Positions 5,733-42,474 of a DNA stretch of 64,000 nt are shown one piece after another (the stretch's first letter is position 1; every line of letters starts with the position of its first letter). The notes beneath the pieces are model-generated. The model was not told the origin of the DNA. It worked only from the letters and a program-made list of their open reading frames with translations, and did no database searches. The stretch lies in assembly GCA_965277625.1 (NCBI GenBank), contig OZ255827.1:1608550-1672549 (forward strand), in the 5' to 3' direction. This DNA is from Gammaproteobacteria bacterium (lineage in GTDB: Bacteria > Pseudomonadota > Gammaproteobacteria > CAKMZV01). Made by a program: the position numbers and the translations under genes.

Positions 5733-5849
5733 GCCTGGCAATGACCTACTCTCACATGGGAACTCCCACACTACCATCGGCGCTAAGACGTTTCACTTCT
5801 GAGTTCGGTATGGAGTCAGGTGTTTCAATCTTGCTATGGTCACCAGGCA
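5733..5849 (-). rRNA. rrf: 5S ribosomal RNA
   Basis: Reverse complement matches bacterial 5S rRNA end to end (TGCCTGGTGACCATAGC...GAACTCAGAAGTGAAACG...CCCATGTGAGAGTAGGTCATTGCCAGGC). Confidence 0.9.
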
Positions 5850-5951
5850 AACTGGTAGAGACATTTAGTCTCATTATTTGGAACCAAGAACACGCTTGTC
5901 AATTCTTTGAATTTGATCGTCACCCTAATAATTCAGGTTATATTACCTAAA

Positions 5952-8838
<2,887 letters not shown>

Positions 8839-9233: not shown

Positions 9234-10391
9234 TTACTGAACATTGCTTACAGCAATTTTTTTATTGGGGTCATAAAAAGGTTTGGGCACCACTTCAATG
9301 GGGTAGCTATTGCCCTCAGCCTCGACCACGGCAGTGGTCCCCAATTCGCTGTGCGCCAAATCCATCATGGCCAAAGCAATGGTTTGTTTTAATCTGGGGG
9401 AATAAATGGCAGAAGTCACATAGCCAATTTGTTTATCGGCCTTAATGATTTTCCAGAAGGTGTTATTACTTGGAACACTGCTGGGGCAATCGATTCTGAT
9501 TCCAACCTGGCTGCGCGTAATGCCTTTTTGCTTGATTGCTTTAAGTGCGGCTTTACCGACAAAATCTGCAGGCATCTCTAAATCAACCAAACGACCCAAG
9601 CCCAATTCATAGGGATTGGTGTGAATGTTCATGTCGGCGTGGTAAGACAGCATGCCCCCTTCAATTCGCCGAATCGACGAAGTATGACCTGGATGTAATC
9701 CCATTGGCCCACCAACGGCCATCAGATGTTCCCAGAGCCGATCGCCATGCGCAGAGTCATTAATAAAGATCTCATAGCCAAACTCACTGGACCAACCAGT
9801 ACGCGATATGATGAGCGGCATGCCCTCTAAGGTTGCGGCAGTCCAATGGAAATAGCGCAAATCGGCAATGCTTTCGCCAAATACAGCCAGCATAATATCC
9901 TGCGATTTTGGTCCTTGTACTTGCACTGGCGAAACATCTGGCTCACAGATATTGACCTCCATGCCTGAATGAACCGCAACGCCTTGAGCCCATAGCAAAA
10001 TATCACTGTCTGCGAGTGAGATCCAGTAGCGATCCTCTGACATCCGCAATAGCACGGGATCATTTAATATACCACCTTGTTCATTGGTTATTAAGATGTA
10101 CTTACACTGTCCAACGGCCAATTTACTCAAATTGCGAGGAGTCAAATACTGCATAAATTGAGTGGCATCCTTGCCAGAGATTTCAACTTGGCGTTCTACG
10201 CCCACATCACAGAGTATGGCTTCGTTGATCAGGTTGTTAAAATTTTGCACAGGGTCACCAAAATCTCTTGGAATATACATATGGTTATAGACGGAAAAAC
10301 CCTTTGCGCCCCAACGCAAAGTTGCTTCATAAAATGGCGACCGTCTGATTTGAGTCCCGTAACCTAGTTGTCCAAATGTATTTTCTGTCAT
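9234..10391 (-). CDS. Aminomethyltransferase (GcvT) family protein, DmdA-like (putative DMSP demethylase)
   Basis: 385-aa ORF with the GcvT fold (EPDVSP-VQGPK, GYE/FEI, IRRIEGG-LSY). N-terminal region SPFYEATLRWGAKGFSVYNHM and ERQVEISGKDA resemble DmdA more than canonical glycine-cleavage T protein. Confidence 0.6.
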   Translation of the reverse strand: MTENTFGQLGYGTQIRRSPFYEATLRWGAKGFSVYNHMYIPRDFGDPVQNFNNLINEAILCDVGVERQVEISGKDATQFMQYLTPRNLSKLAVGQCKYILITNEQGGILNDPVLLRMSEDRYWISLADSDILLWAQGVAVHSGMEVNICEPDVSPVQVQGPKSQDIMLAVFGESIADLRYFHWTAATLEGMPLIISRTGWSSEFGYEIFINDSAHGDRLWEHLMAVGGPMGLHPGHTSSIRRIEGGMLSYHADMNIHTNPYELGLGRLVDLEMPADFVGKAALKAIKQKGITRSQVGIRIDCPSSVPSNNTFWKIIKADKQIGYVTSAIYSPRLKQTIALAMMDLAHSELGTTAVVEAEGNSYPIEVVPKPFYDPNKKIAVSNVQ

Positions 10392-10582
10392 GAGTCTGAT
10401 TCCTTGAGTGTTGGTGAAAAGTTATGATAAATACGATTAAAATCAATCATAATGCTTAATATAACTATTATCATCTAATGGATTATATTTTTTGTTGTTA
10501 ATTTAATCGCTCTAAACGTTCATGATGAATCACTAATGACATTTAAGACCTCAGTGCCACGCCCCAAGAGACCACCATTATT

Positions 10583-11761
10583 ATGAAAAATCGCTTTCAA
10601 ACTAGCCTAAGTCAATCGATGGATGCCCTGTCCATGCGCGTTTATACTTCTAGATTGCTGGGGCAAGATGCTGATTTGGTTTTGCATGGTGGTGGCAACA
10701 CCTCGGTAAAAATTGAAGACACCATTTATGTCAAAGCCAGTGGCTGGGACTTGGCGACCATTGAACCGCAAGGATTTGCACCGGTTGAAACAACCAAGCT
10801 CCAAGCGCTTTTGCAACATACCACACTCAGCGATGCCCAAATGGTCGCGCTTCAGCGCCAATCCATGACCGACCAAAGTTTTCCCAATCCCTCAGTAGAA
10901 GCCATTCTGCACGCCACCATTCCTTTTGATTTTGTCGATCACACCCACGCCGATGCCATCGTCACTATTTCTAATTCAATCCATGGTGAACAAATATTGC
11001 GCCAGTTATACCCACCCTCTGTACTCATATTACCGTACATCATGCCTGGCTTTCAATTGGCAAAACAAGTCTCTGACGCCACCCAGAATATTGATTGGAA
11101 TGCTATTGAAGGCATCATTTTGTTGAATCACGGTATCTTTACTTTTAGTGATGATGCCAAATGGGCTTATGACAAAATGATTGAGTGGGTGAATGTGGCT
11201 GAAAGGTATTTAATGGCTCATACGGATAAGCACATTCACATAGAACAACAACCAACAACGCCCAAATCTTACAACATAGACGCCATTGTTTCAGCCCTGT
11301 CTGCGGCTAAAAAGTGTCCACTATCTCATAAAATCAACCACACACCTTTGGCACGTACCTTTGCTCAGCCCCAATATTTTGCCCTTGCCCAAAAAGGGGT
11401 CCTAACCCCAGAACACATTATTCGAACCAAGCGCGCTCCGGTCATTTTTACCGGCGACTCAAGCGCCGAAATCCAAGCCACATTAGAAGCGTATGCTGAG
11501 AACTACAGCCGCTATTTTCAAACATTTGCCTCAACTGAAACCATGTTAGACCCTTACCCAAATTGGGGGATATTGCCAAATGCGGGCACCATTTGTTTCG
11601 GCAAATCTCAAAAAGACGTCGATGTGATTGAAGACATCAACAACCACACCATGTTGGCCATGCTTCGCGCTGAGCAATTAGGTGGCTATCAAAGCCTCTC
11701 TGAGCAAGACAGTTTTGCCATGGAGTATTGGGAATTAGAACAAATGAAGTTGAAAAAATAA
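10583..11761 (+). CDS. Class II aldolase/adducin-domain protein (RhaD N-terminal-domain-like)
   Basis: 392-aa ORF. LHGGGNTSVK...YVKASGWDLATI is typical of the class II aldolase/adducin fold. Its length and pattern match the aldolase half of bifunctional rhamnulose-1-phosphate aldolase/SDR proteins, but no SDR half is present. Confidence 0.65.
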   Translation: MKNRFQTSLSQSMDALSMRVYTSRLLGQDADLVLHGGGNTSVKIEDTIYVKASGWDLATIEPQGFAPVETTKLQALLQHTTLSDAQMVALQRQSMTDQSFPNPSVEAILHATIPFDFVDHTHADAIVTISNSIHGEQILRQLYPPSVLILPYIMPGFQLAKQVSDATQNIDWNAIEGIILLNHGIFTFSDDAKWAYDKMIEWVNVAERYLMAHTDKHIHIEQQPTTPKSYNIDAIVSALSAAKKCPLSHKINHTPLARTFAQPQYFALAQKGVLTPEHIIRTKRAPVIFTGDSSAEIQATLEAYAENYSRYFQTFASTETMLDPYPNWGILPNAGTICFGKSQKDVDVIEDINNHTMLAMLRAEQLGGYQSLSEQDSFAMEYWELEQMKLKK

Positions 11762-11794
11762 CCATCGCTATGAGGCAACGATTGTGAGATCAAG

Positions 11795-13348
11795 ATGTAT
11801 TTAATGACCATTGATGCTGGCACTGGCAGTGTCCGTGCGGTGCTTTTTAATCTCCAAGGTGAACAGATTGCCATGGCGCAACAAGAATGGATTCATTTAG
11901 CAGAACCTAATGTCCCGCACTCAATGAATTTTGATTTCCACACCAATTGGTCTTTGTGCTGCCAGTGCATAAAAAAAGCCATCCAGCAGGCCAACATTCA
12001 GCCCAAGGACATTCGTGCGATAACGGCTTCCAGTATGCGTGAAGGCATTGTGCTTTATGACAAAGACGGTCAACCGATCTGGGCCGTTGCCAATGTTGAT
12101 GCGCGTGCTTCACAAGAAGTCAAACAACTCAAGACTGAATTTCCTGATTTAGAAGCGGATCTTTATCAACGCACAGGGCAAACTTTTGCCTTAGGCGCCC
12201 TACCCCGGCTGTTGTGGCTGAAAAACAACCGCCCCAAGCTGTATGAGAAATGTCACACCTTTTCCATGATCAGCGACTGGGTGATACACAAACTTTCAGG
12301 CATTATTGGCGTGGACCCATCTAATGGTGGCACCAGTGGTCTGTTAGATTTACACAGTCGCCAGTGGTTAAGCACAGGGACTGAACTCATAAATACCTTG
12401 TCTTTGCCAAGGGTTTATGAATCAGGCACAGTCATTGGCAATGTGATTAAATCCGCTGCCGAAGAAACCGCGCTTTCAACCAACACTTTGGTCGTTATGG
12501 GGGGGGGTGATGTTCAACTTGGCGCGGCTGGACTTGATCTGGTTCGTCCCGGTGAAGCGGCTATTTTAGGGGGCAGTTTTTGGCAACAAATTGTCAATGT
12601 CGATGCCGCGCTAAAACCACCCAAAAACAGGCAACTTCGAGTCAATCCCCATGTCATAACCCACCTTTCACAAGTAGAAGCCATTACTTTTTTTAGCGGA
12701 TTGGTCATGCGTTGGTTCCGCGATGCTTTTTGCCAAGCGGAAAAATTGCAAGCCCAACAAGCGGGCAAAGATGTCTATGATCTGCTCCAAGCCAAAGCCG
12801 CATCGGTTCCAGTAGGGTCGTATGGGGTTATGCCCATATTTTCAGACACGATGAAATATGACAAATGGTACCACGCCAGCCCTTCGTTCATTAATTTGAA
12901 TATACAGCCTGAGAAATGCAATAACATCACTCTATTTCGCAGTTTATTAGAGAATGCGGCCATCGTCAGCGCCTTAAACTTACAGAAAATTGATGCAATG
13001 AGCCCCATTAAAACCGAAGCCATTGTGTTCGCCGCAGGCGCCAGCAAGGGACAATTATGGTCTCAAATCGTCGCCGATGTCCTGAACAGACCGCTTAAAA
13101 TTCCAAAAGTAAAAGAAGCCACAGCGCTGGGTGGGGCATTTGCTGCTGGCGTTGGTGCTGGTGTTTACACCACAATGGCTGAAGCTGCCGACCATGGAGT
13201 TCAATGGGAACGCACCGTCGAACCCATTGCAAGCAATCATCAACAGTACCTACAATTGATGGACCAATGGCAAGCCATTTATAATAAGCAGTTAGCCTTG
13301 GTTGATCAAGGTCTCACAGAAGCCATGTGGCAAGCCCCTGGTTTTTAA
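11795..13348 (+). CDS. lsrK: FGGY-family carbohydrate kinase, LsrK-like (autoinducer-2 kinase homolog)
   Basis: 517-aa ORF collinear with E. coli LsrK as recalled from memory: MTIDAGTGSVRAVLFNLQG, ANVDARA, MISDW, DPSNGGTSGLLDL, GGGDVQLG, RVNPHVI, MRWFRDAFC, MPIFSD, KEATALGGAFAAGVGAG. No lsrACDB, lsrR, lsrF or lsrG genes are nearby. Confidence 0.65.
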   Translation: MYLMTIDAGTGSVRAVLFNLQGEQIAMAQQEWIHLAEPNVPHSMNFDFHTNWSLCCQCIKKAIQQANIQPKDIRAITASSMREGIVLYDKDGQPIWAVANVDARASQEVKQLKTEFPDLEADLYQRTGQTFALGALPRLLWLKNNRPKLYEKCHTFSMISDWVIHKLSGIIGVDPSNGGTSGLLDLHSRQWLSTGTELINTLSLPRVYESGTVIGNVIKSAAEETALSTNTLVVMGGGDVQLGAAGLDLVRPGEAAILGGSFWQQIVNVDAALKPPKNRQLRVNPHVITHLSQVEAITFFSGLVMRWFRDAFCQAEKLQAQQAGKDVYDLLQAKAASVPVGSYGVMPIFSDTMKYDKWYHASPSFINLNIQPEKCNNITLFRSLLENAAIVSALNLQKIDAMSPIKTEAIVFAAGASKGQLWSQIVADVLNRPLKIPKVKEATALGGAFAAGVGAGVYTTMAEAADHGVQWERTVEPIASNHQQYLQLMDQWQAIYNKQLALVDQGLTEAMWQAPGF

Positions 13349-13372
13349 ACACAGACGTTTATAAGGATTATT

Positions 13373-13741
13373 ATGTACCGTACCAATGAACAACAACACA
13401 AATATCGTTTTAACACCCACGGTCCTAAATATTTAACAGTCGGTCCCAATGTGGATACGGGCATTGTGGTTATTACGCCAAACGAGCACCATCCTTGCCA
13501 TAAACACATGCATCAAGAAGAGGCTTTTTTGGTTTTAGAAGGTCAATGCGATGTTTGGGTCGATGGTGAATTGGTGGTGTTGAGTCAAGGCGATTATTTG
13601 CGCTGTGAACCAGGCGAAGCCCATTTTTTTGAAAACACCAGCGATAAAGACTTTAAAGCCGTGTTCACCAAAGCACCGCACTTAGAGCAAAAAGACAGCG
13701 TTTACATAGACTGGAAACCTGGGCAACCTTTCCCCAAATAA
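13373..13741 (+). CDS. Cupin-domain protein
   Basis: 122-aa ORF with cupin metal-binding motifs (HPCHKHMHQEEAFLVLEG ... GEAHFFEN). Confidence 0.65.
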   Translation: MYRTNEQQHKYRFNTHGPKYLTVGPNVDTGIVVITPNEHHPCHKHMHQEEAFLVLEGQCDVWVDGELVVLSQGDYLRCEPGEAHFFENTSDKDFKAVFTKAPHLEQKDSVYIDWKPGQPFPK

Positions 13742-23204: not shown

Positions 23205-24911
23205 TCACTTTGGCCTATTGATTTCTTTTACGCCATCATGAAAACGAATGGACAGCGGTTGTGATGGTTGCAAATCTGCCGATCTAACGACGAACGATCC
23301 TTGTTGTGAAACCAAGGCAAATCCGCGTTTTAATATGTTTTGTGGATCAGCTTGACGCACCAATGCTCGATGGTGACTCAGACGAATTTTTTCCTCTTTC
23401 AATCTTTTTTTGGCTTGGGTGTTAATGGCCTCAGATATGCTTAAAAGCAGCCGCTGCTTTTGATTGACCAGATTCTTAGTCTGCAACTGTAATCGCCTTT
23501 GCAACTCAGACAACTGCCTCTTTTGTTGCTTCATTAGCGGCGCGACGCTTTGTATCACAGGTAAGTGCCCTTGTATTTGAGACCGTTTAGAGAATACCGC
23601 CTGCTTTGCTTGTATCTGAATCTGATGTTGTTGTTTCAATAAGGTTGTATGCTGTTGTTGTAAGGTGTTTCGTGCAAGGCTCAGCTGGTGTAATTGACTG
23701 TGCAGTTTTTGTCTTTGATGATATAAGATTTGCTGCACCCATAAAGGTACTTTGGTAAAGCTGAGCAATTGCTGTTGTGTGGTTTGAATGCTTGTTTTGG
23801 CATATGTTTGGATATATTGCCAATTGTTAAGCGCGTTTAACCCCGAATCCATAATGTGTCGATGGATGAATCCAGCCACCTTTGTCGGTGTTGAAAAATT
23901 TAACTTGGCCACTTCGTCTAAAATGGTTGAATCGGCATCATGGCCAATACCCACCAATACGGGTATGGGAAAGCGGCAAACGCTTTGTGCCAGTTCATAT
24001 TCATTCAAATAATGTAAGTCGCCTTTGGCGCCACCACCGCGAATAATGACCAATGCATCAAACGGCGCTTGCTCATGCCTAGATAAAATTTGTTGCAGTC
24101 CTTGGACGATCGTTTGGCTGGCTTCTCGACCTTGAAACTGTGCTGTGAAATACTCAAATGCGCAAAGCGCTTGTAAGGGATCGGCAATGCGACGAAAATC
24201 ACCCAAGGCATGCGCCTGCTGCGGGCTGATCACGGCAATTCGGAAAAAATCCATTGGCAATCTGTGCGCCGATTGCAATTTATACAATTGGGATTCGATC
24301 AGTCTTGACCTAATTTCTTTGAGTTTAATGGCCATTGCACCCAATGTATAAGTCGGGTCCACATCTTCAACCACTGCTGAAAATCCATAAACACTGTGCA
24401 TGCTGGCCTTGAGTTTAAAGAGTACTTGTAAGCTTTCTGCTAAGGGTTGATTGGCCTGCTGTTGAAATTTGCTGTGTATGGTTTTGGCGTTGGATGCCCA
24501 TATAACCGTTCGCACCGAAGCAATTTTCTGTTTACGCTCGCTTTGTTCATATTCACTCAGAACAAGGTAGTAATGCCCCGATGCGCTTTTGGTAATGCTT
24601 TCAATCTCTGCTTTGACCCACTGACCATGGCTGTACAATTTTTTCACCATGGTATTTAAGGGTTCGAGAAAATCTGTGAGTTTGATGCCTTCATCTATCT
24701 GCCCTAAGGGCAAGGCGATATTTTCAGATACAACCGTCTTATTAATAGGCTGAAAACCCCTGTAATCATCATTTGGCAACCACTGCTTGAACATTGATAA
24801 ATCTGCGCTTTGGTTGATATACCAAAGCTGTTTGGCGGCATCCCAGCGTGCGCCCAGACTCTTAGCCTTATCTTTGTCTATATAAGGCACTTTTAAATAT
24901 TGTTTTTCCAT
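23205..24911 (-). CDS. xseA: Exodeoxyribonuclease VII large subunit with an N-terminal DUF5710-like extension
   Basis: 568-aa ORF. Residues from about 70 onward are collinear with E. coli XseA (OB fold, catalytic core IIRGGG, Q-rich coiled-coil tail). The first 60 or so residues (KVPYIDKDKAKSLGARWDAAKQLWY) resemble the small domain found at primase and topoisomerase C-termini. Confidence 0.8.
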   Translation of the reverse strand: MEKQYLKVPYIDKDKAKSLGARWDAAKQLWYINQSADLSMFKQWLPNDDYRGFQPINKTVVSENIALPLGQIDEGIKLTDFLEPLNTMVKKLYSHGQWVKAEIESITKSASGHYYLVLSEYEQSERKQKIASVRTVIWASNAKTIHSKFQQQANQPLAESLQVLFKLKASMHSVYGFSAVVEDVDPTYTLGAMAIKLKEIRSRLIESQLYKLQSAHRLPMDFFRIAVISPQQAHALGDFRRIADPLQALCAFEYFTAQFQGREASQTIVQGLQQILSRHEQAPFDALVIIRGGGAKGDLHYLNEYELAQSVCRFPIPVLVGIGHDADSTILDEVAKLNFSTPTKVAGFIHRHIMDSGLNALNNWQYIQTYAKTSIQTTQQQLLSFTKVPLWVQQILYHQRQKLHSQLHQLSLARNTLQQQHTTLLKQQHQIQIQAKQAVFSKRSQIQGHLPVIQSVAPLMKQQKRQLSELQRRLQLQTKNLVNQKQRLLLSISEAINTQAKKRLKEEKIRLSHHRALVRQADPQNILKRGFALVSQQGSFVVRSADLQPSQPLSIRFHDGVKEINRPK

Positions 24912-32728: not shown

Positions 32729-33355
32729 TTGGAATATTCAGCACTTTTTTTATTCAGCATCGCATTCTTCTTTACGCCAGGCATGAACAACACCATGATC
32801 ATGGTCTCTGGCGTTAATTACGGTTATAGAAGAAGCATTCCTCATCTCCTTGGCATTGTTTTGGGTTATCCAATATTGATTATTGCTGTTGGATTTGGTC
32901 TGGGCGCCGTTTTTATAAAGTTCCCACAACTTCACCTGATTCTGAAAATATTGGGCGTCATTTACTTGAGCTATCTCGCCTATAAAATTGCCACAACACC
33001 CCTTAATCAAACGGACAGTACCATTGGTGAACCATTCAGTTTCGTAAAAATTGCAATGCTACAATGGGTCAATCCCAAAGGTTGGGTTGGAGCGACGGTT
33101 ATGACCACGACCTATGCAGTTGCCGGCACAGATTACTTTATCCACGTATTAATCATTGCCCTGACTGCAATAACAGTCGGAATATTCAGTGCCAATACCT
33201 GGCTCATTATGGGGAATGTCATCCGTATTTGGCTCACCAATCCCTTCTGGTTAAGGCTGTTTAACTACTTAATGTCCAGCATTTTGGTGATTTCAATCTT
33301 GCCAGCGATACTTGAGCTTTATAAGCAATTAACCTCAGAAGCCCCTATTTTCTAA
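32729..33355 (+). CDS. LysE/RhtB-family translocator (exporter)
   Basis: 208-aa ORF with six predicted TMS and LysE-type N-terminal FTPGMNN. Confidence 0.75.
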   Translation: MEYSALFLFSIAFFFTPGMNNTMIMVSGVNYGYRRSIPHLLGIVLGYPILIIAVGFGLGAVFIKFPQLHLILKILGVIYLSYLAYKIATTPLNQTDSTIGEPFSFVKIAMLQWVNPKGWVGATVMTTTYAVAGTDYFIHVLIIALTAITVGIFSANTWLIMGNVIRIWLTNPFWLRLFNYLMSSILVISILPAILELYKQLTSEAPIF

Positions 33356-34368
33356 CGCAATTGTTTGATTTTTTGGTACAAGGCCTGACTGACTTGTAAT
33401 CCTTGCTGTTGTGCTCGTTGGTGTTGTGATGCTTTACGACTGCCAGGTATATAACTGCCGTGCGTCTTTAAATATTTTTTGAGTTGCTGAATCCTTTGGT
33501 CATAGCCCCCTTGACTCATGGCATTGACGTCTATGGCAATGATTGTTTGTCCCAGGTTCGGCGGAGGACCTTCATCATTGAGCAATGACGAAGCTTGACT
33601 ACTCAGATTTGAATCGGTCAGTCCACTGCTTAATATTTCAACCATCAATGCCAATAAGGCCCCTTTTTGACCACCCAAAGGCTGAAGCATCCCTTTTATT
33701 GCTTCTGCAGGGTCTTGGGTGGGTTGCCCCTTAGCGTCTAATGCCCAGGTGTCGGGTATGGTTGTGCCTTCAAAATGTGCCGCAGCTATTTTCCCCCTCG
33801 CAACGGTTGATAAAGCCATGTCAATGACAATGGGGGCTTGGTCTTTGACGGGCGCGGCAAATGCAATGGGGTTGGTCCCCAACATGGGTATTTTGGCGGG
33901 TGGAATTGGCATGGCCGTGGGTGAATTGCCAAAAATCAAAGCGAGAAATCCGCTTTTAGCCAGCTTTTCACAAGGGGCAGACGCTTGTCCAAAGTGGTGC
34001 GATTTATGTATAGAGATGGCAGCAATCCCCAACTTTTCAGCCTTTTCGGTGAGTAGGTCCACAGCCAAGTCAAGGGCAGGGAAAGCAAATCCATACTGTG
34101 CGTCGATACGGTCTATGGCGGGGAGGATATTTTGAGCAAGGGGTTGGGCATGGCCATTGATTTTGCCATTGCGCACCTGAGGCACATAGGTCATCAGGCG
34201 ACTCAATCCGTGACCGTATTGGCCTTCAATTTCTGCTTTGAGCAAAGCATTCGCAACGCTCACTGCATTGGAATCGGATGTTTTGTTCGCAATCAACGTT
34301 GAATGAATCAGAGAATAAACGTCGTCAATCTTTAAACTAATGTGGGAGGAGTGTGATTTTTGCTGCAT
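33352..34368 (-). CDS. Ldh_2 (malate/L-lactate dehydrogenase 2) family oxidoreductase, ComC-like sulfolactate dehydrogenase candidate
   Basis: 338-aa ORF with Ldh_2 motifs (EGQYGHGLSRL, HHFG). It lies at the end of the hpsN-suyAB operon. Confidence 0.65.
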   Translation of the reverse strand: MQQKSHSSHISLKIDDVYSLIHSTLIANKTSDSNAVSVANALLKAEIEGQYGHGLSRLMTYVPQVRNGKINGHAQPLAQNILPAIDRIDAQYGFAFPALDLAVDLLTEKAEKLGIAAISIHKSHHFGQASAPCEKLAKSGFLALIFGNSPTAMPIPPAKIPMLGTNPIAFAAPVKDQAPIVIDMALSTVARGKIAAAHFEGTTIPDTWALDAKGQPTQDPAEAIKGMLQPLGGQKGALLALMVEILSSGLTDSNLSSQASSLLNDEGPPPNLGQTIIAIDVNAMSQGGYDQRIQQLKKYLKTHGSYIPGSRKASQHQRAQQQGLQVSQALYQKIKQLR

Positions 34369-35332
34369 CGATTTGCCCTGAATGAATGTCTTTGAACCCT
34401 TGCTGACCTTCAGCCAAGGGTCGTTCTTGTATCCATTGATAGTCGCTTATAGCATGATGGGTCAGTAAATCAAGCGCTTCTCTCATTTCCAACATGGTAT
34501 AGGTGTAAACGCCAGCAAAAGTAATTTCTGCTAAGGTTAGCCGACGGGCATCAAATGTCCCCTCACCTTGTTGCAAACCAATATGGATCACACACCCCCC
34601 AGCATGAACACATTGCATGGCACTGGTTCGTGTAGCATGGCTTCCAACAGCATCGAAGACCTGATGGTAGGTATTGGCTTCTAATGTATCCTTCAGAGGG
34701 TTTAACGCTGTGCAATTGACTGAAGCTTGAGCCATCTTTAACCGTTGTTCACTGGTTTCGGAAATGGTGATGTCCTTGACCCCAAAATGTTGTAGGATTA
34801 AAGCGGTGATCAACCCAATGGCGCCCGCTCCAATGACCAAACATTTTTGATCTTCCAAAGCGCACAAATTCGGTAATTTTTTGGCCAATTTAACTGCATG
34901 TAAACAGACAGCTGTTGGCTCGCACAAAGAAGCGATGGTATAAGAGACCGCTTCTGCAAAAGGAATCACACACTTAGCTGGAATGGTTAGATATTGAGCA
35001 AAGCTCCCAGGTCGAGTCATGCCAATCATGGTTCGATTGCAACAAAGGTTATCGCGCCCACTCGTACAAAAAACACAGTGCCCACAAGTAATGAGCGGAT
35101 TAACCGTCACTTTTTTCCCTTTATGGGCACCTTCAATCACCCGCCCTGCCATTTCGTGACCCAATATTAATGGCGGATTTCGGCGCGAGTCATGACCGTG
35201 CCAAGCGTGCATGTCTGAACCACAAATGCCTGCTGCTTTGACTTCAATCAAAGATTCCCCTGCTTGCAAAGTGGGGGTTGGAACGTCTTGAAAAGTGGTT
35301 TGGTGCGGGGCTGTATAGACCAACGCTTTCAT
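34337..35332 (-). CDS. Zn-dependent medium-chain alcohol dehydrogenase (HpsP-like DHPS 2-dehydrogenase candidate)
   Basis: 331-aa ORF with a GHE catalytic zinc site, structural zinc cysteines (CGHCVFCTSG) and a GAGAIG NAD fold. Confidence 0.7.
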   Translation of the reverse strand: MKALVYTAPHQTTFQDVPTPTLQAGESLIEVKAAGICGSDMHAWHGHDSRRNPPLILGHEMAGRVIEGAHKGKKVTVNPLITCGHCVFCTSGRDNLCCNRTMIGMTRPGSFAQYLTIPAKCVIPFAEAVSYTIASLCEPTAVCLHAVKLAKKLPNLCALEDQKCLVIGAGAIGLITALILQHFGVKDITISETSEQRLKMAQASVNCTALNPLKDTLEANTYHQVFDAVGSHATRTSAMQCVHAGGCVIHIGLQQGEGTFDARRLTLAEITFAGVYTYTMLEMREALDLLTHHAISDYQWIQERPLAEGQQGFKDIHSGQIDAAKITLLPH

Positions 35333-36102
35333 AATGCTGAGAACCCACCATCGATAAAAATGGTTTGTCCAGTAATATAATCACTGGCATGTGAGGCTAA
35401 GAACAGACTAATACCTTCTAAGTCTGCCATCTCACCATTGCGTTTCATTGCAGTTTTATCTGAATTTTGGGACGCCCATTTTGGGTCATTAAAAACTGGT
35501 GCAGTCAGCTCTGTTGGAAAAAATCCTGGCGCAATGGCATTTGCACAAATGCCTGAAGCTGACCACGCTTGAGCCATGGCCCGAGTCAGTTGAACCACGC
35601 CACCTTTAGACGTACCATAAGGAATGCTGTTGGCAAATGCCCGCTGAGATTGCAAAGATGCAATGTTGATGATTTTTCCCCAGCCTTTTTTTTGCATGGC
35701 GGGCACGATCGATTGCGCTAAAAAGAAAGGGATTTTCAAATTTATATTTAGGGTTTGATCCCACGATTTTGGACTGATTTCAGCTGAGGATTCACGCAAA
35801 TTTATACCAGCCACATTGGCCAATATATCAACTTGTGTTAATTGATGTGTTTGAACAAAATCAGCCCATGACTGAACTTGGCACAAGTCAGCAACTATTT
35901 TACGCGGTGCGGGTGCCGATTCAAATTGGGCAATATCGTCAATGGTTTGCTGTAAGGATTCGTCCCGACGTCCTAATAAAATGACGTGGGAACCCGCTTT
36001 TGCCAATGTCATCGACATTTGCCGCCCTATGCCTGAACCCGCACCTGTGACTAAACTGGTGGTGCCTTTTAGAGAGAATAAAGCACTGATCCCACTATCC
36101 AT
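35329..36102 (-). CDS. SDR-family oxidoreductase (HpsO-like DHPS 2-dehydrogenase candidate)
   Basis: 257-aa ORF with TGAGSGIG, NVAG and YGTSK motifs. Its stop overlaps the Zn-ADH start (ATGA). Confidence 0.7.
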   Translation of the reverse strand: MDSGISALFSLKGTTSLVTGAGSGIGRQMSMTLAKAGSHVILLGRRDESLQQTIDDIAQFESAPAPRKIVADLCQVQSWADFVQTHQLTQVDILANVAGINLRESSAEISPKSWDQTLNINLKIPFFLAQSIVPAMQKKGWGKIINIASLQSQRAFANSIPYGTSKGGVVQLTRAMAQAWSASGICANAIAPGFFPTELTAPVFNDPKWASQNSDKTAMKRNGEMADLEGISLFLASHASDYITGQTIFIDGGFSAL

Positions 36103-36106
36103 AGGC

Positions 36107-37408
36107 TTAATATTGTAATCTATAGGTTTGGTCGGGGAAATATTTGGCTAAACGAACATCAGCCGTCCGAGCATGAGCTTCCATACCTTCTAAGCGTGAA
36201 ATTCTGGCACAGCTCGTTGCAATTTCTGGCACGGCTTTTTTGTCCAATTTTTGATAGGTTAAAACTTTGACAAATTTTGCCACCGAAAGCCCGCCAGTAT
36301 ATCGCGCAGCGCCTTTGGTTGGCAATACGTGATTGGGTCCAGAACATTTATCACCAAAAGCAACCGTCGTTTCTTCGCCTAAAAACAAAGAACCATAGTT
36401 ATTCAGATTTTCTAACCACCAATCCAGGTTTTCAGTTTGTACTTGCAAGTGTTCTGCGGCATACTGATCACTGACTTGAACCATTTCATCAGCCGTTGAA
36501 CATAGAACCACTTCACCGTAATTTTCCCAAGACACCGAAGCTGTTTTGGCCGTATCTTCGGGCAATTTTTGGATGATTTCTGGAACCAACTCAATGACTT
36601 TTTTAGCCAGAGCTTCATCATCAGTGATGAGCCATGCAGGAGAATCTAAACCATGCTCGGCTTGTCCAACCAAATCTGTTGCAACGATGTTTGCATCGGC
36701 AGATTTGTCTGCAATGATGGCAATTTCAGTCGGTCCAGCAAAAATATCAATCCCAGTTTTACCAAATAACAAGCGTTTGGCTTCAGCCACAAATCGATTG
36801 CCAGGACCAACTAGAATGTTCACCGGTTTAACATCAAACAAACCATAGGCCATAGCCGCAATGCCTTGAACCCCACCAAGTGCCAGAATTTTATCAGCGC
36901 CACAATAGCTCATGGTATATAAAATATAAGGATTGATGCCTTGCTCGGGTCTGGGCGGTGAGACAGCCACAACCTGTTCAACGCCAGCGACCTTAGCCGT
37001 CGCAATGCTCATAATGGCCGAAGCAATATGCGCATAACGCCCGCCTGGCACATAACAACCTGCACTCTGCATAGGACGTACAATTTGTCCAGCAATCACG
37101 CCAGGTTTGATGACTTCCTCAAAGGTGTGGATGCTGTTCAATTGCGCTTGGGCAAAAGTTGTGACATTATCAAATGCATAAGCTATGTCGTCTTTGATCG
37201 CCTGCGGAATATTCTTGTTGTTCTCAGCAATTTCTTCCTCTGTCACAACAATATTGCCCGTCCAGTTATCCAAAGTTTTTGCATATTGAATGGCCGCTGG
37301 TTCGCGATTGGTCTCAATATCGCTGAGCATTTGTTTGACGATGTCCTGGACTTCATTTTCACCCGAAGTCGGTTGTTTAATGGATTTTTTCAAATAGCTT
37401 ATAGACAC
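36107..37408 (-). CDS. hpsN: Histidinol-dehydrogenase-family DHPS 3-dehydrogenase (sulfopropanediol 3-dehydrogenase)
   Basis: 433-aa HisD-fold protein (GPGN-FV-EAK, QAEH). It lies between suyB and the DHPS 2-dehydrogenase candidates, away from any his operon. Confidence 0.7.
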   Translation of the reverse strand: MSISYLKKSIKQPTSGENEVQDIVKQMLSDIETNREPAAIQYAKTLDNWTGNIVVTEEEIAENNKNIPQAIKDDIAYAFDNVTTFAQAQLNSIHTFEEVIKPGVIAGQIVRPMQSAGCYVPGGRYAHIASAIMSIATAKVAGVEQVVAVSPPRPEQGINPYILYTMSYCGADKILALGGVQGIAAMAYGLFDVKPVNILVGPGNRFVAEAKRLLFGKTGIDIFAGPTEIAIIADKSADANIVATDLVGQAEHGLDSPAWLITDDEALAKKVIELVPEIIQKLPEDTAKTASVSWENYGEVVLCSTADEMVQVSDQYAAEHLQVQTENLDWWLENLNNYGSLFLGEETTVAFGDKCSGPNHVLPTKGAARYTGGLSVAKFVKVLTYQKLDKKAVPEIATSCARISRLEGMEAHARTADVRLAKYFPDQTYRLQY

Positions 37409-38574
37409 TACGCGCTCCTATAGAGTTTGGTCATAACGAATTCTTTATGTCCTAAGGCTTCTGCCGCAGTATATCGACCATTGGCCGTTTGAACCATATT
37501 TTCAATTAGCGCATCACCCGCTTCTGAAATGGTCATTTCCCGACGCAGCACACCCGAAACATCGACGTCAACGTGTTCTGACATGGTGCGAACGGTTCGT
37601 GGATTTCCAGTGATTTTAATCACTGGAACAATGGGATTGCCAATAACATTGCCTTGACCCGTTGGGAAAGTATGAATGACGTAACCCGCGGCAGCCATCA
37701 ATGTCACACACTCAGCCGCCGCTGAAGAGGTGTCCATAAAGTATAAACCTTGACCTTTGCTTGGGGCTTCGGCGGGTTCTAATACATCGATGTATTTAAC
37801 ATTTCGTCCTATTTTTTCTAAATTGCCCAGCGCTTTTTCCTCAATGGTGGTCAATCCCCCTTCAATATTGCCTTTGGTGGGTTGAGAATCGGAAAGATCA
37901 GAGGTTTTAAAAGGTTCAATCACATCATCCTGGTACGCCTGCCAAGTCTTCATGAACTTTTCACCCGTTGCTGTGTCATGTGCCCGTTTCACACACAAAT
38001 GTTCAGCCCCAGTCAATTCTGAGGTCTCACCAAAGACGCCGTAAAGCCCCTGAGGAATGAGTTTGTCATACATGTTGCCAACGGCTGGACAAGAAGCCAG
38101 ACCCGTTGTGGTATCAGATTCTCCACACTTAGTCGATACCCACAATTCAGATATATCACACGGCTCACGCAACAAAGCTGTTGCATGATGAACGTACTCT
38201 TTTGCCACCTTAGAAGCCGCTGCAACTGTCGCTATGTCGCCGTTCTGTTCAATGTGAAAACCAGTAACGGGTTTACCCGTTTTAGCGATGCCATCCACAA
38301 TGATTTTAGTCCAATGTGGTTCAATGCCAATCACCACCACCGCAGCAATATTGGGATTGGATCCAGTCCCAATGAGGGTGCGAAAATGCAATTCTAAATC
38401 TTCACCAAACTGCAATCGCCCATAAGCGTGTGGTAATGCAACGGTGCCCTTAATATTATTTGCAACCGCTTCACAGGCGGCGTTTGAAATATCATCCACG
38501 GGCAATATAGCGACGTAATTACGTACGCCAACCCGATTATTCTCTCTACGATAACCCCAAATACTTTGTGTCAT
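37408..38574 (-). CDS. suyB: (2R)-sulfolactate sulfo-lyase large subunit (UxaA/GarD C-terminal-domain family)
   Basis: 388-aa ORF in the altronate-dehydratase C-terminal family, immediately after a SAF-domain small subunit. This arrangement is typical of SuyAB. Confidence 0.75.
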
Positions 38575-38583
38575 GATTGTCTC

Positions 38584-38871
38584 CTACCAACGTTTGGTTT
38601 TTAAATTGTGTGTGTGAACGTGATCGCCTTTTTTAATCTTGGCAATCACCTTACCGATGTCTTCACCGTATTTTATAACTGTATCGCCCACTTCAAAATC
38701 AGTCAAAGCAATTTTGTGACCGATTGGAACATCGTGATTAGATAACATATTCAAGTCTGAGTTGTCCTCAGTAATCACACACAAGAGCTGGGATTGGGCT
38801 TTTAGTCCCTCCACCACAACAACGCCGACGTTGTCTCCTTTATCATGGATTAATAATTGTGGAATTTTCAT
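38584..38871 (-). CDS. suyA: (2R)-sulfolactate sulfo-lyase small subunit (SAF domain)
   Basis: SAF-domain ORF. Start placed at MKIPQLLIHDKGDNVGV (38871), which is preceded by AAGGAT, rather than at the upstream Met at 38901. Confidence 0.7.
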   Translation of the reverse strand: MKIPQLLIHDKGDNVGVVVVEGLKAQSQLLCVITEDNSDLNMLSNHDVPIGHKIALTDFEVGDTVIKYGEDIGKVIAKIKKGDHVHTHNLKTKRW

Positions 38872-39046
38872 GATTAATATCCTTATCGTTAAGTTAATCA
38901 ATGATGCATTTTGTGCATCAACCTATATAAACAGTTGTTGAATTGTCATCAACCCACTGTTGTTGAAAATGGCTCATACTTAATCATCATCAAGCATGAG
39001 CGTAAAACAGCAATCCGAGGAGGACTGCCGCCTCAACCTTTGACGG

Positions 39047-40363: not shown

Positions 40364-40418
40364 TTTTTAAATTCCTAATAGGTTGGGTTCATAAAGTGTA
40401 TTCATACGATGCGTTGAC

Positions 40419-41024: not shown

Positions 41025-41093
41025 TTGATTATCTAAAAATTGGTTAACTAAAAAACAAAGCCCTGCTTGAAAATCAAGCAGGGCTTTAAAAGG

Positions 41094-42384: not shown

Positions 42385-42416
42385 TAAAAAATGAGACTTG
42401 GCGTCTCATTTTTTGC
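42385..42416. promoter_or_regulatory. Perfect 12-bp inverted repeat (AAAAAATGAGAC-N5-GTCTCATTTTTT) in the hpsK/hpsR divergent region
   Basis: Directly visible in the sequence. It is either the operator for the adjacent IclR regulator or a bidirectional terminator-like hairpin. Confidence 0.45.
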
Positions 42417-42474
42417 ATTTTTTAATAAAATAATTGATAATAAAAGGTCTGAACTGTTCGATAAAGAGGCCAAG

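What the first reader, a model, noticed from the sequence alone, without database searches (positions are those of the whole stretch)
10583..13741. Orphan LsrK-like kinase in a three-gene module with a stand-alone RhaD-N-terminal-type class II aldolase-like protein and a cupin
The 517-aa FGGY kinase is collinear with autoinducer-2 kinase LsrK over its whole length, but none of lsrACDB, lsrR, lsrF or lsrG is present. It is instead preceded by a 392-aa protein of the class II aldolase/adducin fold. That protein matches the aldolase-like half of bifunctional RhaD-type enzymes but has no SDR half. A cupin that could act as an isomerase follows the kinase. Together they could form an alternative route for processing phospho-DPD (AI-2) or another 1-deoxy or keto-pentose: kinase, then cupin isomerase, then class II retro-aldol cleavage. 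No such route has been described. The module is divergent from the DmdA-like gene.
Basis: partly seen in the sequence, partly recalled or inferred. Interest (0 to 1): 0.55.

Follow-up and report, generated by a model that had tools for sequence, protein, structure and literature searches.

The report
Stripped-down AI-2 breakdown gene trio
Three adjacent genes most likely form a compact pathway, lacking its usual importer and repressor, that turns the bacterial signal and by-product AI-2 (DPD) into central metabolites, with two uncharacterised enzymes replacing the known LsrG and LsrF.

Summary
The ORFs are 10583-11761 (392-aa class II aldolase-like), 11795-13348 (517-aa FGGY kinase) and 13373-13741 (122-aa cupin). 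They form a tight same-strand trio, and the window holds no lsrACDB, lsrR, lsrF or lsrG.

The kinase is a true LsrK-clade member: NCBIfam LsrK 815 bits against a cutoff of 528, and 56% identity to E. coli LsrK.
- Of 67 informative loci carrying the stand-alone aldolase, 63 have this kinase beside it. They come from Campylobacterota and from Thiomicrospira- and Hydrogenovibrio-like Gammaproteobacteria.
- The third gene is either this cupin (13 loci) or an LsrG-like ABM protein (45 loci), never both.

Both partners also occur in lsr loci that carry lsrACDB and an lsrR-like regulator.
- The long class II aldolase sits in the lsrF position in Sinorhizobium, Ensifer, Rhodobacterales and Thalassospira.
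- The cupin is the orthologue of the lsrK-adjacent Salmonella STM4071. It accompanies lsrK and lsrF, without lsrG, in Bacillus and Lacticaseibacillus.

Best reading: a minimal phospho-DPD processing module of LsrK, then a cupin isomerase, then a metal-dependent "class II LsrF" that releases DHAP plus a C2 unit. The evidence is comparative genomics only. I found no published characterisation of the aldolase in this role. It is a new variant of a known system.

The parts
10392..10582 (.). Divergent intergenic region between the GcvT/DmdA-like gene and the trio. It presumably holds the promoter of the three-gene operon.
   Evidence: The region is 191 nt and AT-rich. Only weak sigma-70-like matches were found (9 of 12), not clearly above the shuffled control. 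There is no Rfam element. The operon promoter role is inferred from gene layout only.
10583..11761 (+). Stand-alone long class II aldolase-like protein of the RhaE type, with an N-terminal aldolase domain and a conserved C-terminal extension of about 175 aa. It is the proposed metal-dependent replacement of LsrF, cleaving isomerised phospho-DPD to DHAP plus a C2 unit.
   Evidence: - Pfam PF00596 at 72.9 bits.
- It matches the N-terminal 400 positions of bifunctional aldolase/SDR models and has no SDR half.
- The equivalents of FucA N29, S71, E73, H92, H94 and H155 are conserved as N39, S104, E106, H120, H122 and H183.
- The AF2 model has pLDDT 89. Its N-half matches 3m4r, FucA and DrdA folds.
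- The LsrK-type kinase is adjacent in 63 of 67 informative loci.
- An in-frame fusion to the kinase occurs in L034.
- Homologues at 38-39% identity sit after lsrB, in place of lsrF, in alpha-proteobacterial lsr loci.
11795..13348 (+). LsrK-clade FGGY kinase, the predicted DPD/AI-2 5-kinase.
   Evidence: - NF008187 at 814.8 bits against a cutoff of 528, full length.
- PDB 5ya0 at E = 5e-191.
- 56% identity to E. coli LsrK.
- In the NJ tree it falls among kinases from complete lsr loci.
- Closest relatives, at 58-63% identity, are Campylobacterota proteins that NCBI names autoinducer-2 kinase.
13373..13741 (+). Small metal-binding cupin, the orthologue of the lsrK-adjacent Salmonella STM4071 family. 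It is the proposed phospho-DPD isomerase, a non-homologous stand-in for LsrG.
   Evidence: - Cupin_2 at 64.8 bits.
- Identity to lsrK-adjacent cupins: 46% to Salmonella, 43% to Deinococcus, 31% to L. paracasei.
- H43, H45, E50 and H84 are invariant in 13 orthologues.
- All 8 plasmid-collection records with a homologue come from the taxa that carry lsrK.
- It never co-occurs with the LsrG-like ABM gene in the 58 aldolase loci that carry one or the other.

Best explanation
The three genes form one operon that encodes a minimal Lsr-type pathway. It disposes of DPD, the uncyclised form of autoinducer-2 and the by-product of LuxS.

Step 1 (well supported by homology). The LsrK orthologue phosphorylates DPD at C5 with ATP. 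This traps it as linear phospho-DPD.

Step 2 (inferred). The 3-His/1-Glu metal cupin isomerises phospho-DPD (2,3-diketo-4-hydroxy) to 3-hydroxy-2,4-pentanedione-5-phosphate. That is the reaction LsrG performs in E. coli, and its product is an acetylated DHAP.

Step 3 (inferred). The class II aldolase-like protein holds the DHAP moiety as a metal-bound enediolate. This is the metal-dependent counterpart of the lysine Schiff base used by LsrF. It cleaves the C2-C3 bond, releasing DHAP plus acetate if water is the nucleophile, or an activated acetyl group if not. Because the leaving fragment is already at the acid oxidation level, the dehydrogenase half found in its bifunctional relatives is not needed.

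Role. The module has no LsrB importer and no LsrR repressor here or in any of the Campylobacterota and Gammaproteobacteria loci. I therefore think it acts as a constitutive salvage and clearance route for DPD that arises in or leaks into the cell, not as a regulated quorum-sensing uptake circuit.
For: Kinase identity:
- NF008187 at 815 bits against a cutoff of 528.
- 5ya0 at E = 5e-191.
- 56% identity to E. coli LsrK against 18-24% to other E. coli FGGY kinases, and placement among kinases of complete lsr loci.

Conserved unit:
- The same trio occurs in L001 and L007 (same species) and, in different surroundings, in L002 and L003.
- Among 82 non-duplicate aldolase loci, 63 have the kinase. Only 4 loci with enough flanking sequence lack it.
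- The median aldolase-kinase gap is 13 nt.
- L034 carries an in-frame aldolase-kinase fusion.

Third gene:
- 45 loci carry an ABM protein whose only NCBIfam hit is LsrG.
- 13 loci carry the cupin, and none carries both.
- Both types occur within Sulfurovum, Arcobacter and Sulfurospirillaceae.

Links to complete lsr loci (lsrACDB plus an lsrR-like regulator):
- lsrR-lsrK-ABM with lsrACDB followed by a class II aldolase, and no lsrF, in S. meliloti, Ensifer, Thalassospira, Alloyangia, Paracoccus and Tritonibacter.
- lsrK-cupin with lsrF and no ABM gene in Bacillus and L. paracasei.
- lsrK-cupin in Salmonella, where STM4071 rises together with all lsr genes (PMC4804515), and in Deinococcus.

Catalytic competence:
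- Class II aldolase metal and acid-base residues are conserved.
- The cupin metal ligands are invariant.
- The related RhaE domain is an experimentally shown DHAP-releasing aldolase (PMC3870299).
Against: - No enzyme of this module has been assayed. All step assignments are inference.
- The window aldolase is no closer to the alpha-proteobacterial lsr-linked aldolases (38-39%) than to bifunctional aldolase/SDR proteins of unknown role (40-50%). The two lsr-linked groups best match different NCBIfam subfamilies: NF006196/NF006197 against NF006192. Orthology between them is therefore not established. The link rests on recurrent context, possibly from independent recruitment.
- In Salmonella the cupin coexists with LsrG, so it need not be an LsrG equivalent.
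- About 8 loci with room on both sides have the aldolase and kinase but neither third gene.
- The class II aldolase fold also hosts epimerases, decarboxylases and oxygenases.
- The closest solved sequence relatives of the cupin are dioxygenases.
- No importer was found, and the luxS status of this genome is unknown.
Confidence: 0.6

Rival explanations
1. The module handles the same substrate with a different division of labour. It does process DPD or phospho-DPD, but the cupin is not the isomerase. It could be a ring-opening or anomer-converting helper that supplies linear DPD to the kinase, or a metal-dependent dioxygenase acting on the enediol. The aldolase-like protein could then act as an epimerase, isomerase or decarboxylase and not as a DHAP-forming lyase.
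For: - The cupin coexists with LsrG in Salmonella.
- In L. paracasei it is followed by an RbsD pyranase.
- Its best solved sequence relatives are quercetin and gentisate dioxygenases.
- The class II aldolase fold includes AraD epimerase, the YgbL decarboxylase and the POD and NovR oxygenases.
- Some loci have the aldolase and kinase only.
Against: - The cupin and the LsrG-like ABM gene are strictly alternative in 58 loci. Both types occur within three lineages, which implies repeated switching.
- In Bacillus and L. paracasei no lsrG lies within about 9-11 kb of the lsr locus, which instead carries the cupin next to lsrK and lsrF.
- The aldolase takes exactly the lsrF slot where lsrF is missing.
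- It retains the full FucA-type catalytic set, including the Glu acid/base.
- Many hosts are microaerophiles or anaerobes, which argues against an O2-dependent step (established knowledge, not tested here).
Confidence: 0.18
2. This is an ordinary pentulose or deoxy-pentulose catabolic operon unrelated to AI-2. The LsrK-like kinase has drifted to another substrate, such as D-/L-ribulose, xylulose or 1- or 5-deoxy-pentuloses. The cupin is a sugar isomerase, and the aldolase cleaves a ketose-1-phosphate-like product.
For: - There is no LsrB transporter, LsrR or LsrF.
- The aldolase family's only characterised member acts on rhamnulose-1-phosphate (PMC3870299).
- LsrK specificity has been measured only in enteric bacteria (my knowledge).
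- FGGY kinases shift specificity readily (established knowledge).
Against: - The kinase scores far above the curated LsrK cutoff. It is as close to E. coli LsrK as the kinases of complete lsr loci are.
- An FGGY kinase phosphorylates the terminal C5-OH, which gives a 5-phosphate. That is not a ketose-1-phosphate unless the keto group is moved, as it is in the Lsr route.
- No sugar transporter or regulator is linked in any of about 80 loci.
- Most hosts are vent chemolithoautotrophs with little sugar catabolism (record titles; established knowledge).
- Both partner genes recur specifically in LsrB-containing lsr loci.
Confidence: 0.12
3. The chemistry is the same but the role is signal interception. 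The module is the cytoplasmic half of an AI-2 uptake and quenching system. Its importer is unlinked or non-specific (for example a ribose-type ABC, MFS or PTS-like route), and it is used to remove the AI-2 of neighbours from dense vent biofilms.
For: - In luxS-negative alpha-proteobacteria the homologous enzymes are linked to an LsrB importer and so act on exogenous AI-2 (PMC2561040).
- Deinococcus has an MFS gene next to lsrK-cupin.
- PAS-GGDEF-EAL signalling genes often flank the module or are inserted in it in Campylobacterota.
Against: - No transporter gene recurs beside the module in about 80 loci.
- There is no LsrR-type regulator, so there is no signal-responsive circuit.
- The Campylobacterota hosts belong to a group in which luxS is nearly universal, so they have an internal DPD source (PMC2628731; PMC8056087).
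- This reading overlaps with the best explanation and differs only in where the DPD comes from.
Confidence: 0.2

Closest known systems
Canonical Lsr AI-2 processing pathway of E. coli and Salmonella (LsrK kinase, LsrG isomerase, LsrF CoA-dependent thiolase)
   Same: The kinase is orthologous (56% identity, above the curated LsrK cutoff). The proposed sequence is the same: phosphorylate, isomerise, then cleave to DHAP plus a C2 unit.
   Different: The window has no lsrACDB importer, no LsrR repressor, no LsrG and no LsrF. The isomerase slot holds a cupin instead of an ABM-fold protein. The cleavage slot holds a metal-dependent class II aldolase-fold protein instead of the class I (Schiff-base, TIM-barrel) LsrF. 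Whether CoA is used is unknown.
Alpha-proteobacterial lsr loci (S. meliloti pSymB, Ensifer, Thalassospira, Alloyangia, Paracoccus, Tritonibacter)
   Same: They carry the same long stand-alone class II aldolase type (413-418 aa, 38-39% identity, same two-part architecture) together with LsrK and no lsrF.
   Different: Those loci keep the LsrB ABC importer, an LsrR-like regulator and a true LsrG. Their aldolases best match a different NCBIfam subfamily (NF006192) from the window protein (NF006196/NF006197). An earlier survey described these loci as 'lsrBDCARKG', without an F (PMC2561040). I found no assigned function for the aldolase.
STM4071-type lsrK-adjacent cupin (Salmonella, B. cereus group and Bacillus, Lacticaseibacillus, Deinococcus)
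   Same: The window cupin is a full-length orthologue (31-46% identity). It has the same invariant His/His/Glu/His site and the same position directly after lsrK.
   Different: In Salmonella it coexists with LsrG and LsrF, and in Firmicutes it pairs with LsrF. Only in the window type does it pair with the class II aldolase. Its function is unknown. The literature calls it a hypothetical protein or a 'mannose-6-phosphate isomerase' with a possible AI-2-P processing role (PMC3420918; PMC4804515).
RhaEW bifunctional L-rhamnulose-1-phosphate aldolase / L-lactaldehyde dehydrogenase and other PRK08324 aldolase-SDR fusions
   Same: The N-terminal module of about 400 residues is homologous (class II aldolase domain plus a conserved middle region). 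RhaE releases DHAP (PMC3870299).
   Different: The window protein has no SDR half. It scores far below every curated cutoff and only 214 bits on the RhaD_aldol-ADH model. It has no rha gene context. The proposed substrate carries a ketone where rhamnulose-1-P carries a hydroxyl, so the product would be an acid and no dehydrogenase would be needed (inference).
DHAP shunt for SAM by-products (MtnK/DrdK kinase, MtnA/DrdI isomerase, Ald2/DrdA class II aldolase)
   Same: The logic is the same: a kinase, an isomerase and a class II aldolase convert a ribose-derived SAM by-product to DHAP plus a C2 fragment. The DrdA structures (6btd, 6btg) are among the fold matches of the window aldolase. The shunt is described in PMC10986504 (listed); its enzyme details are from my own knowledge.
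   Different: All three enzymes belong to different families or subfamilies: the kinase is FGGY, not MtnK-type, and the isomerase is a cupin, not MtnA-type. The substrate would be DPD from S-adenosylhomocysteine via LuxS, not 5-deoxyribose or methylthioribose. The C2 product would be acetate, not acetaldehyde.

Membership tests
LsrK (autoinducer-2 kinase, NCBIfam NF008187) | Full-length match above the curated equivalog cutoff, with FGGY_N and FGGY_C domains | tested here: met
   814.8 bits against a cutoff of 528, covering residues 2-516 of 517. The next best model, XylB, scores 178 bits. Pfam FGGY_N and FGGY_C are both present. PDB LsrK 5ya0 matches at E = 5e-191.
LsrK (autoinducer-2 kinase, NCBIfam NF008187) | Phylogenetic placement among kinases encoded in lsr loci that carry LsrB importers | tested here: met
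   In the NJ tree and identity table the window kinase is 56% identical to E. coli LsrK. The kinases of the L. paracasei and Rhodobacterales lsr loci are 44-52% identical to E. coli LsrK. XylB, AraB, FucK and RhaB are 18-26% identical to either LsrK. Internal bootstrap values were low, so only clade membership is claimed, not the branching order.
LsrK (autoinducer-2 kinase, NCBIfam NF008187) | ATP-dependent phosphorylation of DPD at C5 | not testable with these tools
   This needs an enzyme assay.
Canonical lsr operon (lsrRK / lsrACDBFG) | LsrB-type periplasmic receptor with LsrACD ABC importer | tested here: not met
   tblastn with E. coli LsrA, C, D and B gives no hit in the window. The roughly 80 related loci give only generic ABC ATPase hits, in 2 of them. 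The whole genome was not available.
Canonical lsr operon (lsrRK / lsrACDBFG) | LsrR repressor adjacent to lsrK | tested here: not met
   There is no LsrR homologue in the window or in the related loci.
Canonical lsr operon (lsrRK / lsrACDBFG) | LsrF (class I aldolase-fold thiolase) and LsrG (ABM isomerase) | tested here: not met
   Neither is present in the window. An LsrG-like ABM gene is present in 45 sister loci but not in cupin-type loci such as this one.
Class II aldolase/adducin superfamily (PF00596) | Domain match, fold, three His metal ligands and the catalytic Glu | tested here: met
   PF00596 scores 72.9 bits against a cutoff of 22.2. The AF2 model (pLDDT 89) matches 3m4r (TM 0.89 on the target) and FucA structures. 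H120, H122, H183 and E106 align with FucA H92, H94, H155 and E73 and are invariant in 22 homologues.
Bifunctional aldolase/short-chain dehydrogenase (RhaEW, TIGR02632; PRK08324 subfamilies) | C-terminal SDR domain fused to the aldolase module, and a score above the curated cutoff | tested here: not met
   The protein ends at residue 392, which corresponds to about profile position 400 of 657-705. The best score is 417 bits against a cutoff of 831, and TIGR02632 scores 214 against 568. The next ORF is the kinase.
STM4071-type lsrK-associated cupin | Small single-domain cupin directly next to lsrK, with full-length similarity to the Salmonella protein and a conserved His-x-His...Glu...His site | tested here: met
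   It is 46% identical to the Salmonella lsrK-adjacent cupin over residues 1-106. It starts 24 nt after the kinase stop. H43, H45, E50 and H84 are invariant in 13 orthologues.
Cupin DMSP lyases (Pfam PF16867) | Family-level match plus the catalytic Tyr two residues after the motif-1 Glu (as I recall from DddK and DddQ), in a DMSP-related context | tested here: not met
   The partial match (31.6 bits against a cutoff of 27, profile positions 84-154 of 162) is much weaker than Cupin_2 at 64.8 bits. The residue two positions after the invariant motif-1 Glu (E50) is an invariant Phe (F52), not Tyr; the Tyr requirement is from memory. Orthologues sit beside lsrK in Salmonella, Bacillus and Deinococcus. 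The DmdA-like neighbour is not conserved with the trio.

The most novel reading that the evidence does not exclude
The long stand-alone class II aldolase is a metal-dependent, possibly CoA-independent, "class II LsrF", and the STM4071-type cupin is a non-homologous LsrG. Lsr processing would then be a 2x2 combinatorial pathway: ABM or cupin for the isomerase, and class I or class II for the lyase.

Together with LsrK these enzymes would form a third "DHAP shunt". It would salvage the ribose-derived by-product of S-adenosylhomocysteine (DPD) in luxS-positive vent Campylobacterota, a group in which an earlier survey found no LsrB-type AI-2 receptor. This would give them an internal AI-2 sink.

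In Calvin-cycle Gammaproteobacteria the module might also clear phospho-DPD formed by decay of ribulose phosphates or by RuBisCO beta-elimination. This last point rests on my memory of the RuBisCO side-product literature and was not verified here (retrieved nothing useful).
Probability: 0.35. Interest if true: 0.8.

Novelty: new variant of a known kind. Interest (0 to 1): 0.65.

Why it matters
AI-2 is produced by a very wide range of bacteria. The only characterised route that degrades it is the enteric LsrK-LsrG-LsrF pathway, and whether AI-2 is a signal or merely a waste product in most luxS-positive bacteria is a long-standing dispute.

If this module works as proposed, three things follow.

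1. Non-orthologous displacement has occurred at both processing steps. This includes the S. meliloti locus, in which an earlier genomic survey listed no lsrF (PMC2561040).
2. Environmental Campylobacterota and sulfur-oxidising Gammaproteobacteria, which lack known AI-2 receptors, would have a defined and testable AI-2/DPD sink. Cultured strains carry it, for example Sulfurimonas indica NW8N, Sulfurovum sp. CS9, Arcobacter sp. 15-2 and Hydrogenovibrio sp. JE_KL2.
3. It would add a new reaction type, cleavage of an acyl-DHAP, to the class II aldolase superfamily, and a function to a widespread hypothetical cupin.

It also flags an annotation hazard. The aldolase is variously named oxidoreductase, short-chain dehydrogenase or RhaD, and the cupin passes the Pfam DMSP-lyase threshold.

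Tried and rejected
- **Cupin structure.** The single-sequence model had pLDDT 50 and was not used.
- **Papers not held.** Pereira 2008 on S. meliloti, Pereira 2009 on LsrB-like receptors, and Perez-Rodriguez 2015 on luxS in Epsilonproteobacteria. I could not check whether the first two comment on the alpha-proteobacterial aldolase.
- **Literature searches.** Searches for LsrK with class II aldolase, LsrF alternatives, LsrK in Sulfurimonas, Sulfurovum, Arcobacter or Thiomicrospira, and AI-2 kinase in Campylobacterota found no description of this module.
- **luxS and pfs.** There is no LuxS signature or homologue in the window or in 1.27 Mb of fetched loci. luxS is therefore not linked to the module, and its presence in this genome stays unknown. 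The Thiomicrospira crunogena genome paper does not mention it.
- **Regulatory elements.** The promoter and terminator scan was not informative. There is no riboswitch or other Rfam element near the trio.
- **Extra module members, considered and rejected.**
  - A SerB-like HAD phosphatase lies upstream in 5 Sulfurovaceae-type loci. This is lineage-specific synteny.
  - MqnE-like radical SAM, GlmS and GlnD genes are synteny neighbours in Sulfurimonas.
  - The DmdA-like gene is adjacent only in this species.
- **Family assignments rejected.** The cupin as a DMSP lyase and the aldolase as RhaEW were both rejected (see the membership tests).
- **RuBisCO by-product idea.** The literature search retrieved nothing relevant, so it is kept only as speculation.

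Full report
**1. The observation**

All are on the + strand, separated by 33 and 24 nt. Upstream is a divergent GcvT-family gene (9234-10391, -). Downstream, converging on the trio, are xdhB, xdhA and guanine deaminase genes.
- The 392-aa protein has a single Pfam domain, Aldolase_II, at residues 21-210. It aligns end to end with the first ~400 positions of NCBIfam bifunctional aldolase/short-chain dehydrogenase models. It stops where their SDR half begins and scores far below their cutoffs (417 bits against 831).
- The 517-aa protein matches the curated LsrK model NF008187 over its full length at 814.8 bits (cutoff 528). The next best kinase model, XylB, reaches 178 bits. The solved LsrK structure 5ya0 matches at E = 5e-191, against 1.6e-26 for the best glycerol kinase.
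- The 122-aa protein is a Cupin_2 protein.
- tblastn with the eight E. coli Lsr proteins, taken from the K-12 record, finds only the kinase in the 64-kb window.

One caveat applies: absence of the other lsr genes is shown for the window only.

**2. Is the kinase in the LsrK clade?**

Yes. It is 56% identical to E. coli LsrK and 52% identical to the Ensifer and Thalassospira LsrK. It is 18-24% identical to E. coli XylB, AraB, FucK and RhaB. In an NJ tree it falls among kinases encoded in complete lsr loci, and the Lacticaseibacillus lsr kinase branches outside the group that holds both the window kinase and E. coli LsrK. Internal bootstrap values were low, so I claim clade membership only. Its nearest relatives (58-63% identity) are Campylobacterota proteins that NCBI already names autoinducer-2 kinase.

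**3. Is the trio conserved?**

Yes. A near-identical trio lies on a 500-kb ENA contig and in a 2.06-Mb chromosome titled "MAG: Gammaproteobacteria bacterium" (L001, L007). A 61%-identical aldolase sits in the same aldolase-kinase-cupin order in quite different surroundings, with peptide ABC permeases upstream and NagZ downstream.

A scan of 185,579 species-representative genomes with an alignment of the stand-alone aldolase returned 80 loci. Most are Campylobacterota: Sulfurimonas, Sulfurovum, Arcobacteraceae, Sulfurospirillum and Nitratifractor. The rest include Thiomicrospira, Hydrogenovibrio and Piscirickettsiaceae.

I called ORFs on these loci and labelled them with phmmer. The 82 non-duplicate loci break down as follows.

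| Category | Loci |
|---|---|
| LsrK-type kinase beside the aldolase | 63 |
| Contig too short to tell | 13 |
| Bifunctional Bacteroidetes proteins | 2 |
| Enough flank but no kinase | 4 |

- The median aldolase-kinase gap is 13 nt.
- One Sulfurospirillaceae MAG encodes an in-frame aldolase-kinase fusion of 916 aa.
- No transporter or regulator family recurs beside the module.

**4. The third gene alternates**

Forty-five loci carry a 95-aa ABM-fold protein, thirteen carry the cupin, and none carries both.
- The ABM protein's only NCBIfam hit is the LsrG model (E about 1e-6 to 1e-7, below cutoff).
- A profile built from the 45 ABM proteins matches E. coli and Salmonella LsrG and the alpha-proteobacterial lsr ABM proteins at E = 1e-10 to 1e-14.
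- Both the ABM type and the cupin type occur within Sulfurovum, Arcobacter and Sulfurospirillaceae. The alternation therefore reflects repeated switching and not one ancient split.

This is the main argument that the cupin does the job of LsrG in this module. About eight loci with room on both sides have neither gene.

**5. Both partners turn up in complete lsr loci**

This was the decisive result. It came from the annotated plasmid collection.

| Organism | Arrangement |
|---|---|
| S. meliloti pSymB, Ensifer canadensis, Thalassospira marina, Alloyangia pacifica, Paracoccus aminophilus, Tritonibacter mobilis | lsrR-like, lsrK, ABM(LsrG); divergent lsrA-C-D-B followed by a 413-418-aa class II aldolase/adducin protein. 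No lsrF. |
| Salmonella | lsrK followed by a 116-aa cupin; LsrF and LsrG also present |
| Bacillus sp. N5-665 | lsrR, lsrK, cupin, lsrF; divergent lsrACDB; no ABM gene |
| L. paracasei plasmid | lsrR-like, lsrK, cupin, rbsD; divergent ABC genes and lsrF; no ABM gene |
| Deinococcus psychrotolerans | MFS, lsrK, cupin |

- Rezzonico and Duffy described the Rhodobacter sphaeroides and S. meliloti region as "lsrBDCARKG", that is, without F (PMC2561040).
- The window cupin is 46%, 43% and 31% identical to the Salmonella, Deinococcus and L. paracasei cupins over essentially its whole length.
- In 72,556 plasmid records, homologues of the window cupin occur in only 8. These come from the same taxa, in the same numbers, as in the LsrK hit list.
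- The Salmonella gene is STM4071. It rises together with all lsr genes in a fabR mutant (PMC4804515). Quan and Bentley noted it as "consistently adjacent to lsrK" in Salmonella, the B. cereus group and Spirochaeta, with a "possible AI-2-P processing role" (PMC3420918).

All four combinations of isomerase type (ABM or cupin) and lyase type (LsrF or class II aldolase) therefore exist in nature. The window carries the cupin plus class II combination, stripped of importer and repressor.

**6. Are the two partner proteins plausible enzymes?**

The aldolase-like protein:
- It keeps the FucA-type catalytic set. N39, S104, E106, H120, H122 and H183 align with FucA N29, S71, E73, H92, H94 and H155, and all are invariant in 22 homologues.
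- The AF2 model is confident (pLDDT 89).
[quoted passage not shown] The C-terminal ~175 residues match nothing in the PDB.
- The same fold hosts epimerases, a decarboxylase and oxygenases, so the fold alone does not fix the chemistry.
- The one characterised relative of the long N-terminal module is RhaE of RhaEW. RhaEW converts rhamnulose-1-phosphate to DHAP and lactate (PMC3870299).

The cupin:
- H43, H45, E50 and H84 are invariant in 13 orthologues.
- It has no close solved relative. The best sequence hits are dioxygenases and small cupins of unknown function.

**7. Mechanism (inference)**

- LsrK phosphorylation at C5 gives linear phospho-DPD: CH3-CO-CO-CHOH-CH2OP.
- Read from the phosphate end, this is not a DHAP-type ketose.
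- After the LsrG-type 1,2-carbonyl shift it becomes CH3-CO-CHOH-CO-CH2OP, which is DHAP acetylated at C3.
- LsrF stabilises the DHAP carbanion through a lysine Schiff base while CoA attacks the acetyl carbonyl (my knowledge of Marques et al. 2014).
- A class II aldolase would do the same through a metal-bound enediolate. This is the classic class I / class II duality.
- If water, or the gem-diol hydrate, is the nucleophile, the products are DHAP and acetate.
- This also rationalises why the LsrK-linked forms lack the SDR half. In RhaEW the dehydrogenase oxidises the released aldehyde. Here the released fragment is already an acid.

**8. Weak points**

- The window aldolase is no closer to the alpha-proteobacterial lsr-linked aldolases (38-39%) than to bifunctional proteins (40% to R. 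leguminosarum, 50% to a Flavobacteriales MAG).
- The two lsr-linked groups best match different NCBIfam subfamilies.
- At 50% clustering, most relatives are of bifunctional length.
- The LsrK-linked stand-alone form may therefore have arisen more than once. That would be convergent recruitment, which supports the functional link but weakens simple orthology transfer.
- The cupin coexists with LsrG in Salmonella.
- Nothing has been assayed.

**9. Physiological role**

There is no importer and no LsrR. luxS is reported in 22 of 26 sequenced Epsilonproteobacteria and described as conserved across the group (PMC2628731; PMC8056087). An earlier survey found no lsrB homologue in Epsilonproteobacteria (PMC2561040).

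I therefore favour a constitutive salvage and clearance route for DPD over a quorum-sensing circuit. Its logic parallels the DHAP shunt for other SAM by-products.

I could not establish whether the window organism has luxS. None is present in the window or in any fetched locus.

The window organism also has heterotroph-type features, so it should not be assumed to be a strict autotroph. These include TRAP transporters, an acid-sugar-like catabolic cluster, xanthine dehydrogenase and a DmdA-like gene.

**10. Novelty**

Searches of the held literature found no description of the following:
- a class II aldolase acting in AI-2 processing;
- the minimal K-aldolase-(G or cupin) module;
- LsrK in Campylobacterota.

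Two key older papers could not be read. The cupin association was already known as an observation. I rate the finding a new variant of a known system, with interest 0.65.

Noticed in passing
window 5733-8832 (-): A complete 23S rRNA (5968-8832) and a 5S rRNA (5733-5847) are present, but there is no 16S rRNA and no tRNA gene anywhere in the 64-kb window. The rRNA genes therefore appear unlinked. The GcvT/DmdA-like gene sits directly upstream of the 23S on the same strand.
   Followed up: partly
window 9234-10391 (-): This GcvT-family gene scores 370 bits on the DMSP demethylase model, just under its cutoff of 410, so it is DmdA-like but unconfirmed. It neighbours the trio only in this species and not in other trio-bearing lineages.
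   Followed up: partly
window 13373-13741 (+): The cupin formally passes the Pfam DMSP_lyase gathering score (31.6 bits against 27) on a partial match. Next to a DmdA-like gene this invites a wrong DMSP-lyase annotation. The family is lsrK-linked in Salmonella, Bacillus and Deinococcus.
   Followed up: yes
L034 8001-10751 (+): A Sulfurospirillaceae MAG encodes an in-frame fusion of the aldolase-like protein (residues 1-392) and the LsrK-type kinase (402-915), followed by the cupin. It could be a true fusion or an assembly artefact.
   Followed up: partly
L005 11496-12005; L012 9314-9874: An IS200/Y1-type transposase-like ORF (Pfam Y1_Tnp) is inserted between the aldolase and kinase genes at the same relative position in two different Campylobacterota loci.
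   Followed up: no
L041 11395-13011; L067 6584-8200; also L031, L049: PAS-GGDEF-EAL (c-di-GMP) genes recur next to the module in Campylobacterota. In two loci they lie between the kinase and the LsrG-like gene. This could be chance, since such genes are abundant in these genomes.
   Followed up: no
plasmid record NC_003078.1 (S. meliloti 1021 pSymB) 645139-646458: The LsrK match in strain 1021 covers only residues 2-441 of the query. The near-identical strain 2011 record is full length at the same start coordinate (H39 against H24). This suggests a frameshift or sequencing error in the 1021 record.
   Followed up: no
window 33352-42197 (-) and 42391-43254 (+): This is a catabolic cluster of unknown substrate. 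It encodes Ldh_2-family dehydrogenase, Zn-ADH, SDR, a histidinol-dehydrogenase-like protein, an altronate/galactarate dehydratase-like protein and TRAP DctPQM, with a divergent IclR regulator.
   Followed up: no
window 23205-24911 (-): The exonuclease VII large subunit carries an extra N-terminal region. The homologous gene beside the trio in L002 is annotated with DUF5710 as well as the usual XseA domains.
   Followed up: no
L010, L011, L012, L013, L018 (upstream of the aldolase): A SerB-like HAD phosphatase gene lies immediately upstream of the aldolase in five related Sulfurovaceae-type loci. I judged it lineage-specific synteny, but a phosphatase beside a sugar-phosphate module may deserve a second look.
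   Followed up: partly
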